A DNA stretch of 64,000 nucleotides from Octopus vulgaris (lineage: Eukaryota), in NCBI GenBank assembly GCA_951406725.2, contig OX597814.1, positions 9,300,001 through 9,364,000 of the forward strand. The letters run 5' to 3'. Both the position numbers and the translations under genes were made by a program. The notes under the pieces are model-generated. The model was given only the letters and a program-made list of their open reading frames with translations. It was not told the DNA's origin and made no database searches. Below are positions 16,090-61,440 of this stretch, one piece after another (within the stretch, counting starts at the first letter, position 1; each line of letters starts with the position of its first letter).

Positions 16090-16373
16090 ACAAGACTGAA
16101 GGTGAAATCTTCTCTAGCCTACTACATTCACCTGTATTTCCTAATTAAACTATTACTGGTTTTTCTCTGCTTTTAAAGTTTTTCTTTTCAAAATAAACTC
16201 TTATCGCAAATTTCTCAGAAACGTAAATTGTATAAAAGAGAGTGAAGTTGTGGTGGTGGGAAGAGTTTTTCTCGGAAAAACTGGTGACATACAAAGTTGT
16301 TTAACCAATCGACGACTTACAAAAGCCATCGAATTAATATCAAAGTTTCAGTTTTGCTCAGAGTTGTTGCTAG
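16090..16373 (+). promoter_or_regulatory. Putative promoter and non-coding exon 1 of the macrodomain gene
   Basis: TATAAAAG 16231-16238; TTCTCAGAA 16212-16220; TTCTCGGAA 16269-16277; TGAAGGTGAAA 16097-16107; donor TAG|gtaagt at 16373/16374. Conserved in the paralogue at 4052-4350. Confidence 0.6.
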
Positions 16374-17879
16374 GTAAGTTTTCACTTTACAACTTCTTCA
16401 TTGAATTTTTCACTTCCTCCATCTCTCCATTGCTTTACAAATTCTTTACAGAGTCGCATTCAATATTTTTCACTCCGTTATAACTACACAAATTTGTCTT
16501 CTTGTAACTCTCAGGACGTATACATATATATATATACACGAGTGAGTGGACAAACGAAAGAGGGGCACTCAATCATATTATTGGGAATAACACGTGCGTG
16601 CGTGTGTGATAAAGAGGCCCGAAAATCTGATGATGATGTGTTGGTTGAAGTTATCAGACGTGGCGAAGTTTCGCATGTCGTAGCACAGATTTCCGTCGAT
16701 TTCCGTAAAAAACTTTTATTTTTTTACATAAGTAATGAGAGCGAAAGAGACTAAGAGGAAGCGATTTTATGACGAGAAGGTACACACTAACAGAAGCACT
16801 TCACTTACACAACATACTGTCTGTCTCCCACACCCCATCAAACACACACAGGCCGACTTCAAAGTGAAACCTTCTCGTCGTAAAATCGCTTCCTCTTAGA
16901 AATCTGTGCTACTACAACCGAAACTATGCCAACGTGGCACTACAACCGAAACTATGCCAACGTAACTGATAATGATGATTCTTGCAGAGTATGTCTTCTT
17001 GTTGAAAAGTGTGTAACCCAAAATACGAAGTTTCAAACAACATGATTCATTTCCGTTACATTTACAATTATAAATCAACCTTGTCGTATCGTTGAAGATC
17101 AACATATAATTTTAACTTTTGTGCATTTGTTGACAATCTACTCTAGTCTTTTGGAATTACTAGTGAGGGAAAGGGTGTGTGTGACAGATGTAAATGTGGT
17201 AGGCATGATAATTAGATTAATTAATATCGGTGTAAAACAAACGACCGGGGAAGAAAGGAGAGATGCTTACAATAGTTTTCGTTTGAGTCACTGACATCGT
17301 TTCTCGTTCAACCCCAAAACTGTCTGCAATCTTTCAATGAAAGATATCGCCCATATTCCTAAAAGTTATGAGGAAAAAAAGTAGTATCGTGTAAATCTTT
17401 CGAAACCCCTCCCCCTTGGGAAAATTCTTTCCAATAAATACCTATTTACTCGGAATCTACAGCATATAAGCGGTATTTGTTGGAAATTTTGTTAAAATAC
17501 ATCCATATTTCTAGAAGTTAGGAGACGGGTGGGGCACAAATCTGTAGTTAGGCCATCATAAATACGCATACATACATAAATATACGTATTATGCTTTCAC
17601 GATTCGCTTCTGTTTATGTGCATGTATAGATGGATGGTTGGGTGGGTTTGCACCGAGGGTTCTATGTGTAAGCTGAAGAACAAAGTGAAGAAATGAGAAT
17701 GTTTAACGGAACTTACCGAACAAGTAGTTTCACTTTCCTGAAAACATCTCTGAAGGATTGCCGTAAAGTTTGAAATGGTCTTTTTTTTTTTCGTAGTGAA
17801 ATCGGAATAATTTGTAATCGAAAAGGTGGGAGTTATTTATCCATAATTCTCAAATTAGTTTCCTATTAATTGAGGCCGC

Positions 17880-18281
17880 GGATCTTTTCGGTTTGAACGG
17901 CAGTTTTTAACATAATTTCTAGGTAACTAAAAAATTTTAAACTTCGTATACTGGTAGAATGTGTTTATAAAACATCTTTTTCTCTTGGCTTTGTTGTGAA
18001 AATTCTATGGTTTGTAAGATATTTGGTTTTTTTTTTTTCAATTTTTTCAATTTCAACCAATCAATGACGTCTATTGAGGTAAAAAAAAAACATTCTGTGC
18101 CGTATGAATATATCCCTCGTTTAAGAAACAGATTGGGTTTATTTACATATTTGAAGAAAAAAAGATACCCTTCCCCCCACCCCTAACCCTAAAACAGATT
18201 GAAATGCAATAGATCGATACTAGGGTCATAATTATGGGTGACAATTTCATATGACACCGCTAGTAAAAACCGAAAAGATCT
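17880..18281 (+). mobile_element. MITE with GGATCTTTTCGGTTT terminal inverted repeats and 8-9 bp target-site duplication (Merlin- or MULE-like)
   Basis: (t)gaggccgc is duplicated at 17871-17879 and 18281-18289. Confidence 0.75.
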
Positions 18282-18800
18282 GAGGCCGCTTTAGTTAAAG
18301 GTTACTCTATAATGTTTGCAGGTCAATGCATTTCTACGTTACGTCATTTTCTTTTGACAGCCATTCATTCTCTCAGTTTTCTTTCTTTCCCTTTATCTTT
18401 TTGGGGTGGGGCTGTAATTTGACAAACGGTTTTTTTTTAATGTTTTCTCTCTCTCTCTGTTCTATTTATACCTTTCTTTCCTGCATTCTGTCTCTCTCTT
18501 CCTCGTTCTTCTGGTTTGCTAAGTGTGTTCCTTCTCCAAACTTTATTTCCTTGTAACTTTCCGAGAAATGCATATTTTGTAATGAAATTTTCTTCAAATT
18601 TCTTTCAGAATGTGTAGATTACAACTATATAGCGGTTTACCAAGTTTTTCTTGTGTAGTATAGCGAATATTTTCTGGTTGGTTTGTTTACTGATAGTGTA
18701 AGGCTACTTTATTATGTTTCCTATTTGGAAATAGATAAATATATTTAGCTTTTTTAAGTTGGGATATATAATGATAAAACCGTCACTTATAAGTCTTATC

Positions 18801-58292: not shown

Positions 58293-61200
58293 ATATATAT
58301 ATATATATATATATATATATATATGTATATATGTATATATATATGTATATATGTATATATATATGTATATATATATGTATATATATATGTATATATATAT
58401 GTATATATATATGTGTATATATATATGCATATATATATGTATATATATATATGCATATATATATATGTATATATATATATGTATTATATATGTATATATA
58501 TATATGTATTATATATGTATATATATATATATGTATTATATATGTATATATATATATGTATTATATATGTATATATATATATATATGTATTATATATATA
58601 TATATATATATATATATATATATATATATAGAGAGAGAGAGAGAGAGAGAGAGAGAGAGATGAATAACTAAACTTGTGTATGTGTATATGCATCTGTGAA
58701 TACGTTCTTGTGTGTGTATGTATACATAAATGATAGGTGTATGTGTGTATATATAAGTGTATATATAAATATGTGCATACATGAAAGTGTGTATTGTGCA
58801 AATAAATCGGTTATAGAATGGAATATTAATAGATTTAAATTTATGAATTTACAAAATTTCAGTTAGATTATCCATATATTTATGATTAAGATTGCCCTTA
58901 TGTAGTGTTTTTGTAAAAATTTAGGAATTATAAATATTTTCATTTGATATTTTTCATGAAGCATCATTATATATTCAAACGGATTCTATTATTCTTGAAA
59001 AACTTTGCTTTATTAATGAAGCAGAAACGGGTTTGTAAGGGAAATAACTATATAAGCATTTTTAGAGAGTTACTTCCCTTATATAATAGCGAAAAAATGC
59101 ATTAAAAATTGGATAAAATGATGGTAAATTTTTTTTAAATCATAGACTCATCGTAGACGCGTGCTAATACCCAGAAGGGCTCGATATGAATCACGACTAT
59201 AAGATACCCGCTTTTGGTTAAACTGCACCGCAAAATGTGGGAGTAGTTAGGAATCTAAATCGTAGGAGACAGACACCACACAACTTCACTTTTATATATA
59301 AAAATATATATATGTTGTGTCTGAGAAGTACCTTATTAATTGACACACACACACCGGTTCGATTTCCACTCATTTATTCATTTTTTCTAAAATTTTTGTT
59401 ACGTCTTGCAACTTTTTCAATAGTCGTTGACTCTGTCAGTTATCTGAGCTGTGTTCTTTTTGTTTGTTTGTGCGCATGTGTGTATGCATTTATCTGTTTG
59501 CTTACATATCCATTTACCTACACTCACACACACATGCACGTCTACATAACAGCCTACTATCAACTCTACCTGTGAATTTATAAACATGAGTATTGGAGTT
59601 TGACTATCTTCTACATCGAGATTATCTGTGAGAGTTCAGTAGAATTCCATGAAGTCAACATGAGGGAACTGACTCTTCTCTCTAAACTAATCTATGACTG
59701 ACTACCTTAGACAACCATGACCTTGGTGGATTCTGTCCCACCAAGTCACAGAGAGGAAAACCACCCACCATCATCTCAGCAGTGAAGAAAAGCACCACTA
59801 ATTGCTGGGGTGGCTGGACCATACCCACCCAGAACCCTGAGAACAACAGTCAGGTGAAAAGAATGATTGCAAATGCATTAGGGATAGCATAAGAACCACC
59901 TTGAAGAACCACATAGTAAAGAGTTACAGTCATAGCTTAATTTAAGGAGGAGGCCCACATGGTGGATGAAAGGGATCAAGGATTTCAGCTGATTTGCTAT
60001 ATTTGAGAAGACATGTCAAGCTAAGTGAATCATGGTTATTGCCAATGATGGGGGAATGTAAAAGGTGCACAATATATCCTGCAAAGTGGTTGACATTAGG
60101 AAAAGCATCCAGCTGTAGAAACCAAGTCAAAACAGATGAGACTGGAATCTGGCATAACATTCCAGTTTTTCAGTCACATTTAAATTACCTAACCCATGGG
60201 AAATGGATGTTAATTAGGGATGATGATGGTGGTGGGGAAAGTTTGAGGTGAAAACAGTGGTAGATTGGCTTCTTTCCTTTTCTACCTACCAGACCACTCA
60301 CTGAGCTTTCTTTGTTTAAAGAGACTTGCCCAAGGTGCCATACAGTGAGACTGAACCTAAACCAAGGAAATTAAAAGTAATAGCAACAGAAGCAGTATTA
60401 ATACCAAGAGGCAATCTTTATATCCAACTAAATGTGGATGTTGTGTTAGAACATCAAGTACTACCTTAATTACCTTGAGAGGACCTCTCATATGGACGTA
60501 CGGTCCATAAATGCATGCAAATTTACATTGTTGGTAGACAACAATCATCTGCTACAGGCACCAGAACTGCCAGATCACGTATTTTCGCTCTGCTCAGGTT
60601 CATCAGTGATAGACGCCCTGTAGCAACATAACAGCCAAATCTCCGTGTCAACGATATATAGACACTGATGTCACAAATAGCCTGAAGGCTTATTAAAGAT
60701 AATTAATAGCAACAGAAGCAGTGTTAATACCAAAAGGCATTCTTTATGTCCATATGCTGTAATGAAGAAATAGGGGAAATTCCTGTCCACTGTAGAACTG
60801 TTTGTGAAGTTCTTTCTTTTTGAATCTTTTCTTTTTCCTTTGTCATCTCTCTTATGAATGACCATGATCCTAATTGTTGGACCTCCTCCTTCTCCTTCTT
60901 GCTTACAATATGAAAATAATTACCTTGTTCTCTGCTTTTGTTGCTCAAATATTCTTGGCTACACAAGATGCACCAAAGAACCTCATCTTCAACATTCTTG
61001 ATAGACATTTCAACAGCAAACACAAGACTCAGCAGTTTTAATCAGAATGGTGAGTGGAGAGAAGAAACAATACAACTTCAGCTACATGAAGACACCATTG
61101 CCACATGTTTAACTTCACTAACACCAAATCAGTGGCCATGTAAATTGTGAGATGTTTTTCTGCCACATCCACTTGGCACAGAACTAAAAGACAGGCAGGC

Positions 61201-61385
61201 CATACACAGAATATCTTTGATCTGAGTAACAAAGTAGTTTTTCTCATTTGTTTGTTTCTGATTAGAAATGAACCATTAAATATTTCAAATATTTTGTCAT
61301 GCTTTTGTTATATTAAATCTCTTCTATTTGCAAAAATGAAAAAATTAAGCATAAAAATAATTCTGATTGTTTTTTGTTTTAACAG

Positions 61386-61440
61386 GCATTCGCTCAATGT
61401 ATCCAAAGGAGACAGAAAAATGAAGGATTTCATTCTAAAA
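61386..61440 (+). CDS. Macrodomain gene exon: AFAQCIQRRQKNEGFHSK (C-terminal helix), ends phase 1
   Basis: gttttttgttttaacag acceptor and gtaaac donor. Continues ...HPEIEK in phase 0 and resembles the AF...RR terminal helix of PARP14-type macrodomains. Confidence 0.65.

What the first reader, a model, noticed from the sequence alone, without database searches (positions are those of the whole stretch)
16231..61440. Expanding macrodomain gene family, mostly invisible to the ORF track
Seen: five coding exons (13+146+228+222+55 nt) join in frame into about 221 aa, MAEK, a Ser-rich linker and one complete macrodomain. No RRM/KH region like vertebrate PARP14's precedes it. Two inverted paralogous pieces and an internal duplication lie in the same window. 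Inference: a lineage-specific, rapidly duplicating cluster of ADP-ribose-reader or macro-PARP genes, plausibly an undescribed innate-immune effector family. A PARP catalytic domain is not visible in this window.
Basis: partly seen in the sequence, partly recalled or inferred. Interest (0 to 1): 0.75.

Follow-up and report, generated by a model that had tools for sequence, protein, structure and literature searches.

The report
Octopus PARP14 offshoot lacking its eraser
The five exons are the spliced start of an octopus gene related to the antiviral enzyme PARP14 that lacks the RNA-binding and ADP-ribose-erasing parts and repeats a predicted ADP-ribose-reading domain four times, likely making a reader-only protein within a family of at least 17 fast-diversifying copies.

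Summary
Five AG/GT-bounded exons give 221 open codons with one macrodomain. All four junctions appear in assembled contigs of probable RNA runs.

The gene runs about 187 kb (G000:C1:9316231-9503225). It has a GAS/ISRE-bearing leader, the MAEK exon and four frame-symmetric modules of PARP14 macrodomain-2 type, with no RRM, KH or hydrolase macrodomain-1 ahead of them.

After module 4 a linker exon carries TCA>TAA, which ends an 866-aa reader-only protein. An alternative open linker 51 kb further on would give 1248 aa with an intact H-Y-I transferase tail copied from a paralogue. That splice choice is untested.

The family has 51 reader exons, 17 transferase loci and 19 hydrolase exons. Hydrolase-less genes arose at least three times, or had their 5' ends converted. 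Similar models occur in other molluscs and a hemichordate, although a 2023 paper calls this architecture mammal-only.

These are annotated PARP14-like genes, not an undescribed family. This scan already noted the expansion, selection and promoter on other DNA of this genome. The immune role is inferred.

The parts
16055..16373 (+). Promoter / non-coding leader exon shared by the family; splice donor after 16373; CpG o/e about 1
   Evidence: 29 genome matches at 68-100%, all within the PARP14 clusters; alignment of 29 copies; CpG
16098..16107 (+). IRF-E-like word (GAAGGTGAAA here; family consensus GAAAGTGAAA); motif definition recalled
16269..16277 (+). GAS-like STAT site TTCTCGGAA (a second one at 16212-16220); motif definition recalled
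   Evidence: present at this place in 26 of 29 homologous copies, with the middle letters varying
16344..16355 (+). ISRE-like site AGTTTCAGTTTT; motif definition recalled
   Evidence: 22 of 29 homologous copies; the copies are not independent
23665..23699 (+). First coding exon, ATG at 23687 (MAEK), phase-1 donor; the same exon starts full-length RRM-bearing paralogues
   Evidence: 14 copies; joint to 33864
32445..33576 (.).
   Evidence: its flank-plus-repeat junction occurs only before modules 1-3 of this gene, two modules of the 207.0-Mb sister gene and the C29 copy
33864..34009 (+). Module 1 exon a: Ser/Pro linker and first strands of the macrodomain; four residues longer before the DVIVN strand than other modules
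34287..34514 (+). Module 1 exon b: macrodomain-2-type core with loop-1 Gly kept and no NAAN hydrolase motif; the diversifying exon
35114..35335 (+). Module 1 exon c: second half of the macrodomain; loop 2 is the shortened G-A-E-M type
61386..61440 (+). Module 1 exon d: closing helix and linker, phase-1 donor to module 2 (beyond the window)
62669..63847 (.). Second copy of the repeat-bearing intron piece, upstream of module 2
13257..14292 (-). Inverted paralogous module fragment: exon a fused in frame into exon b, intron, exon c cut by a repeat; likely a pseudogenic piece
3949..4385 (-). Inverted promoter/leader copy, facing the neighbouring PARP14-like gene to the left (head to head)

Best explanation
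The exons start a spliced PARP14-derived gene that lacks the RRM/KH and macrodomain-1 hydrolase exons and carries four tandem macrodomain-2-type modules, and it likely makes mainly an 866-aa reader-only protein predicted to bind ADP-ribosylated targets, with an untested splice route to a 1248-aa transferase form. Shown: every module and the MAEK exon end in phase 1, so deletion or unequal exchange between introns keeps the frame. The linker exon after module 4 has TCA>TAA. A second, open linker 51 kb further on leads to an intact KH/WWE-like and H-Y-I transferase tail copied from the 216.0-Mb paralogue. Inferred: STAT/IRF-type signalling switches the shared promoter on during infection. Full-length paralogues write ADP-ribose. 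This protein binds marked targets with several domains at once, cannot erase the mark, and so acts as an adaptor, amplifier or decoy. Conversion homogenises introns while selection diversifies the rim of the binding pocket. Module 1, with its shortened loop 2, may bind ADP-ribose weakly or not at all.
For: Gene model with all internal sites AG/GT and no stop except in the linker. Junctions in probable RNA contigs. Best solved match is PARP14 macrodomain 2 (3q71, E 5e-20) over MD1 (3q6z, 4e-10) and MD3 (4abk, 4e-8; domain identities of these entries recalled). 0 of 51 exon-b copies have NAAN and 51 of 51 keep the loop-1 Gly. The stop is in 3 of 21 linker copies (this gene, the 207.0-Mb sister, C29). 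The same stop ends O. sinensis XP_029635758.1, so it is shared across species while the upstream modules stay open. The sister gene has no other linker, KH or WWE exon before its transferase. Exon b: M0 omega 1.45, M2a-M1a 2dL 114.5 against 0.41-0.63 and 0.4-27.8 in 12 mosaic simulations without positive selection. Intron diversity 0.028 against 0.110 at 0-fold sites of exon b in 34 copies. GAS in 26 and ISRE in 22 of 29 promoter copies, as in the human PARP14 composite promoter (PMC10287828, passages).
Against: No read evidence for the junctions after module 4 or for the transcript end. The stop exon keeps an intact donor, so onward splicing would likely trigger nonsense-mediated decay (rule recalled). 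The O. sinensis orthologue model XP_036364520.1 is 93-100% identical through module 3 but continues to five modules and a transferase. The tail has 0 indels where 4.9 are expected from its introns, which favours use of the transferase form. The contigs are laid at 95% identity, so they may come from close paralogues, and their RNA status is a guess. The exon-c selection signal (2dL 18.8) lies inside the control range. The promoter copies are homologous, so the shuffle control overstates significance. No binding, activity or induction data exist.
Confidence: 0.55

Rival explanations
1. The main product is the 1248-aa form (four readers, KH/WWE-like, active mono-ADP-ribosyltransferase): a convergent PARP15-like writer without an eraser; the stop exon is skipped.
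For: Open frame through the second linker. H-Y-I triad and E 9e-41 to the PARP14 catalytic domain. No indel or stop in 399 tail codons against the 216.0-Mb paralogue, with 4.9 gaps expected. The O. sinensis orthologue model has a transferase. Paralogue CAI9714739.1 is MEKR + 2 macros + PARP.
Against: It must skip a well-formed exon 7 kb after module 4 for one 59 kb after it. The tail is a 95% segmental copy that begins just before its own linker. Tail differences are 44 nonsynonymous to 14 synonymous, close to neutral. The O. vulgaris annotation splits the locus in two.
Confidence: 0.27
2. A decaying by-product of birth-and-death evolution: the nonsense exon makes transcripts decay and the modules persist by gene conversion, not by function.
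For: Nearby debris: the inverted fragment in the window, the promoterless C29 copy, orphan 5' ends, and final transferase exons not found for 2 of 17 loci within the stretches fetched. Strong homogenisation could purge damage.
Against: All 16 coding exons up to the stop are open with intact sites. Modules 1, 2 and 4 differ 4-15% at nonsynonymous sites while their introns differ 1-2%. Modules 1-3 are conserved in O. sinensis. Spliced contigs exist.
Confidence: 0.12
3. The modules no longer read ADP-ribose and serve as a variable protein-recognition array.
For: 16 of 46 exon-c copies, module 1 included, have the one-residue-short G-A-E/K-M loop 2 in place of G-x-G. Variable sites cluster around loop 1 and its neighbours.
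Against: 30 of 46 keep G-x-G, modules 2-4 among them, and all 51 keep the loop-1 Gly. The missing N-terminal Asp is also missing in human MD2 (alignment; binding by MD2 recalled).
Confidence: 0.06

Closest known systems
PARP14 (ARTD8) macro-PARP; Octopus sinensis XP_036364520.1 is the orthologue model
   Same: MD2-type macrodomains, WWE-like and H-Y-I/L transferase tail at the locus, GAS+ISRE-type promoter words, tandem duplication, diversifying selection
   Different: No RRM/KH N-terminus, no MD1 hydrolase, no MD3 seen; MD2 is repeated four times; a nonsense linker may cut off the transferase
Mammalian PARP15
   Same: Partial PARP14 derivative with only non-hydrolase macrodomains before a transferase (PMC4038475 passages; PMC10221186 section 3.1 and legends)
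   Different: Independent origin; MD2 x 4 rather than MD2 + MD3; keeps the parental promoter and first exon; this copy may end before the transferase or keep a KH/WWE-like part
Invertebrate 'PARP15-like' models (Haliotis XP_067657209.1, Glandiceps XP_077997496.1, Littorina XP_070212581.1, Sinanodonta KAL3880352.1)
   Same: Short N-terminus, no NAAN-type macrodomain, 2-4 macrodomains, transferase
   Different: 27-37% identical only; some may be truncated models; gene structure not checked here
Lancelet and sponge PARP14-like clusters (PMC4245714, passages)
   Same: Several PARP14-like genes close together with 1-3 macrodomains
   Different: 4-6 genes there; at least 17 transferase loci and up to 7 near-identical modules here

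Membership tests
macro-PARP (PARP9/14/15) | Macrodomain(s) | tested here: met
   Pfam Macro; PDB PARP14
macro-PARP (PARP9/14/15) | PARP catalytic domain in the same gene | tested here: inconclusive
   Intact downstream and reachable in frame only by skipping the stop exon; junction not tested
PARP14 | N-terminal RRM and KH domains | tested here: not met
   None in 16001-34300; present after MAEK in 5 of 5 RRM-type paralogue stretches; MAEK spliced to module 1
PARP14 | MD1 hydrolase macrodomain | tested here: not met
   No MD1 exon match between the promoter and the transferase; 0 of 51 modules have NAAN
PARP14 | MD2 reader macrodomain | tested here: met
   Best single-domain match 3q71/5o2d; groups apart from MD1 with other mollusc non-MD1 domains (quick tree, weak support)
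PARP14 | MD3 macrodomain | tested here: not met
   All four modules are 77-90% alike copies of one type; nothing else found in the gap
PARP14 | KH and WWE before the transferase | tested here: inconclusive
   WWE E 0.003 and KH_1 E 0.1, both below cut-off
PARP14 | H-Y-(I/L) mono-transferase triad | tested here: met
   LWHGT, GVYF and SIYVIF align with human PARP14; triad positions recalled
PARP15 | Descent from the mammalian MD2+MD3+ART duplication | tested here: not met
   Derived from octopus paralogues at 88-100% DNA identity; resemblance is convergent
PARP15 | No hydrolase macrodomain and no RRM/KH | tested here: met
macro-PARP (PARP9/14/15) | ADP-ribose binding, transferase activity, induction by infection | not testable with these tools
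   Needs biochemistry and challenge experiments

The most novel reading that the evidence does not exclude
Octopus repeatedly splits PARP14 into specialist proteins by phase-1 exon shuffling: eraser-bearing, writer-only and a conserved reader-only tandem array. This gene is an infection-induced, multivalent ADP-ribose decoy or adaptor that can switch to a captured transferase tail by alternative splicing. PARP15-like architecture would then be a recurrent invertebrate invention rather than a mammalian one.
Probability: 0.3. Interest if true: 0.72.

Novelty: new variant of a known kind. Interest (0 to 1): 0.5.

Why it matters
PARP14 both writes and erases ADP-ribose, and viruses fight over that mark. 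A family that has separated writer, eraser and reader parts several times, with 51 natural reader variants, would let one test what each part does and how readers gain target specificity. It would also correct the published view that PARP15-like proteins are confined to mammals. It gives a handle on antiviral signalling in cephalopods, which is little studied. The current O. vulgaris annotation of this locus is wrong at its 5' end (LINE-derived start) and split in two.

Tried and rejected
- Pfam PF00644 search of the genome found 9 matches, none on C1; it missed the split exons that a protein query then found.
- Searches used exon boundaries off by one. therefore searched the wrong frame; it served only as a contrast (most matches contain stops there, 0 of 51 in the true frame).
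- A first intron-versus-exon comparison over 39 copies with mixed intron types gave only 0.087 against 0.109. The 4-fold contrast comes from 34 copies with the 570-620 nt intron.
- 7 of 51 copies were left out of the codon tests: exon c not extracted for 5, one frameshifted, one with a compensated shift.
- Positive selection on exon c was rejected as within the control range.
- Single-sequence AlphaFold of P0015 failed (pLDDT 38); no fold search was run, and alignment A1 was not used.
- No run on record as RNA was listed.
- A simple inversion swapping tails with the left neighbour could explain the O. sinensis model. The model's last transferase exon matches other paralogues instead, so this is not supported.
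- A fifth module between module 4 and the tail was not found.
- NF-kB-like sites: 0 of 29 promoter copies.
- No paper on loop-2 Gly-to-Glu binding loss was found, so that effect is recalled only.
- Sequence look-up of earlier findings with P0018 returned nothing.
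Full report
Observation. With corrected boundaries the five exons (23687-23699, 33864-34009, 34287-34514, 35114-35335, 61386-61440) give 221 open codons: MAEK, a Ser/Pro linker and one macrodomain. Contigs of runs guessed to be RNA join 23699>33864 (1 of 4 runs), 34009>34287 (2 of 4) and 34514>35114 (2 of 4 as exact joints). They continue from 35335 into exon 5 with 30 of 30 letters in 1 of 4 runs. Intron depth is under 25 against 39 to 11,000 in bins over exon b. Contigs were laid at 95% identity, so close paralogues may contribute.

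Identity. The window is G000:C1:9300001-9364000 of a 2.8-Gb genome. Of 44 longer homologues, 40 are Octopus proteins, mostly named PARP14-like or PARP15; the other four are from Argonauta, Babylonia, Ylistrum and Ciona. O. sinensis XP_036364520.1 begins with the same sequence and has five macrodomains and a PARP domain. The O. vulgaris models split this locus into CAI9714785.1, whose first 57 residues come from a LINE at window 7476-7646, and CAI9714786.1.

Whole gene. Three more four-exon modules follow at C1:9368031, 9379824 and 9407166. Each module starts and ends in phase 1, as do the MAEK exon and the last MD1 exon of paralogues. After module 4 comes a 55-nt linker at 9416023 with an in-frame TAA. 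Of 21 copies of this linker, 3 have the stop and 18 are open. The same stop ends O. sinensis XP_029635758.1. Using it gives 866 aa. A second, open linker at 9467313 leads to exons with weak KH and WWE matches and a PARP domain, ending at 9503225, for 1248 aa. That tail is a 94-97% collinear copy of the tail of the paralogue at 216.0 Mb. It shows 58 changed codons of 399 (44 nonsynonymous, 14 synonymous), no stop and no indel, where 4.9 gaps are expected.

What is missing. tblastn with three full-length paralogues finds no RRM, KH or MD1 exon in window 16001-34300. It finds none in the first intron of three other genes either (207.0, 7.75 and 5.69 Mb), whereas 5 of 5 other MAEK stretches fetched show RRM-region exons within 18 kb. 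The repeated domain matches PARP14 macrodomain 2 best. None of the 51 copies has NAAN and all keep the loop-1 Gly. In human PARP14 only MD1 hydrolyses (PMC10499325, passages; PMC10221186, section 3.1 and legends). Loop 2 comes in two types: G-x-G in 30 of 46 copies and a shortened G-A-E/K-M in 16, module 1 among them.

Family. Matches in G000, all lower bounds: 51 reader exons (48 on C1, 3 on C29), 17 transferase loci, 19 central MD1 exons, 14 MAEK exons and 29 promoter/leader copies. They lie in three regions of C1 (5.3-9.5, 206.1-207.2, 215.8-216.6 Mb). Genes carry 0-3 MD1 and up to 7 MD2. The C29 hits are a 96-99% copy of modules 2-4 of this gene with no upstream part found in the 20 kb fetched. 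The 207.0-Mb gene is the sister: intron 1 is collinear at 93-97% and the last module is 99% identical.

Origins. On a tree of 8 of 14 MAEK flanks (one long-branch row left out, five not fetched), the four MD1-less genes need three changes. An AU test rejects them as one clade (p 1.5e-70). Two of them are sister to RRM-bearing genes (100/100 and 87/88 support). This means at least three deletions, or fewer with conversion of 5' ends; the data do not separate the two. Among 141 distant representatives, 29 have an N-terminal non-NAAN macrodomain array and 13 of those have a PARP domain. Ten were looked up: models from Littorina, Haliotis, Glandiceps, Sinanodonta/Potamilus, Patella, Mytilus, Saccostrea (two), a fish and one unnamed. 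Some may be truncated models. PMC10221186 states that PARP15-like proteins exist only in mammals; its supplements were not read.

Selection. In 34 copies sharing the common intron, diversity is 0.028 in the intron, 0.110 and 0.067 at 0-fold and 4-fold sites of exon b, and 0.098 and 0.21 in exon c. My own codon fits on 44 copies give exon b omega 1.45 and 2dL 114.5 for M2a over M1a, and exon c omega 0.53 and 18.8. Twelve mosaic simulations without positive selection give omega 0.41-0.63 and 2dL 0.4-27.8. So exon b passes and exon c does not. High silent diversity in exon c beside near-identical introns points to conversion that spares old exon types. The control is crude and models only one level of mosaicism.

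Promoter. The leader region has a GAS-like word in 26 of 29 copies and an ISRE-like word in 22 of 29; 16 of 29 have a GAAANNGAAA word somewhere in the stretch (motif definitions recalled). Human PARP14 has a functional GAS+ISRE promoter (PMC10287828, passages). The copies share ancestry, so this counts as one observation. I found the ISRE and IRF-E words first; the GAS check followed two earlier notes of this scan.

Mechanism. Shown: structure, splicing of the window's exons, loss of eraser and RNA-binding parts, the stop, the captured tail, copy numbers and exon-b diversification. Inferred: immune induction, ADP-ribose binding, action as adaptor or decoy beside full-length paralogues, and which isoform dominates. 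I put 0.55 on mainly reader-only, 0.27 on mainly transferase, 0.12 on decay and 0.06 on a non-ADP-ribose array.

Novelty. PARP14 duplication, partial duplication to PARP15 and positive selection on macrodomains are published (PMC4038475, PMC4245714 and PMC13224862, passages). Four searches found no paper on the octopus expansion; one proteome paper lists a PARP14-like protein in octopus skin mucus (PMC11431876, passages). The library lacks most subscription journals and no supplements were read. This scan has described the family, its selection, its shuffling and its promoter on other windows of this genome. What this window adds is the MD1-less architecture, its repeated origin, the shared nonsense linker and the captured tail; none of the notes listed names these. 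Verdict: real, a new variant of a known kind, moderate interest.

Noticed in passing
G000:C29:31.76-31.82 Mb (L082-L084, L120-L123): 96-99% copy of modules 2-4 and the stop linker on another chromosome, starting inside module 2; its module-2 exon c has two small insertions that restore the frame
   Followed up: partly
P0001 against the gene model, from module 4 on: The O. sinensis orthologue model is 93-100% identical through module 3 and the module-4 linker, then follows other paralogues: tail exchange between sister species or an assembly/annotation chimera
   Followed up: partly
L030, L036, L037, L038, L039 last transferase exon: Several paralogues appear one residue shorter just before the G-x-G-V-Y-F motif (N-G-x-Y-G against N-A-T-A-Y-G), a length polymorphism in the donor loop at an exon boundary
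   Followed up: no
P0050 (O. bimaculoides XP_052829884.1): The opposite architecture: RRM region, one MD1 hydrolase-type domain, no MD2, partial PARP domain
   Followed up: partly
P0022 (Argonauta hians): Two near-identical MD2-type domains that group together, so the tandem duplication of MD2 happened separately in Argonauta
   Followed up: partly
G000:C1:207172000 (L034) and 207064-207172 kb: The sister gene's transferase exons are open although no in-frame route past its stop linker was found
   Followed up: partly
P0002-P0007, P0014: Annotated isoforms skip module exon c (phase 0-0), giving half macrodomains in frame
   Followed up: no
window 37800-40110: Tandem array of 290-350-nt units derived from a common SINE-like repeat, with 62-nt subrepeats
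   Followed up: no
window 7240-12450, 19494-20624, 43896-44378, 48694-49795, 52087-57921: Several LINE/reverse-transcriptase fragments, two of them duplicated inside the window at 95% and 98% identity; one supplied a false start to the public gene model
   Followed up: partly
window 6674-7004 and 18996-19278: Near-perfect palindromic (foldback) elements of 160-286 nt
   Followed up: no
G000:C1:7897951 and 8216368: MAEK exons 99% identical to the window's, followed by RRM-region exons but with no downstream macrodomain or transferase match on the same strand: probable orphan 5' ends
   Followed up: partly
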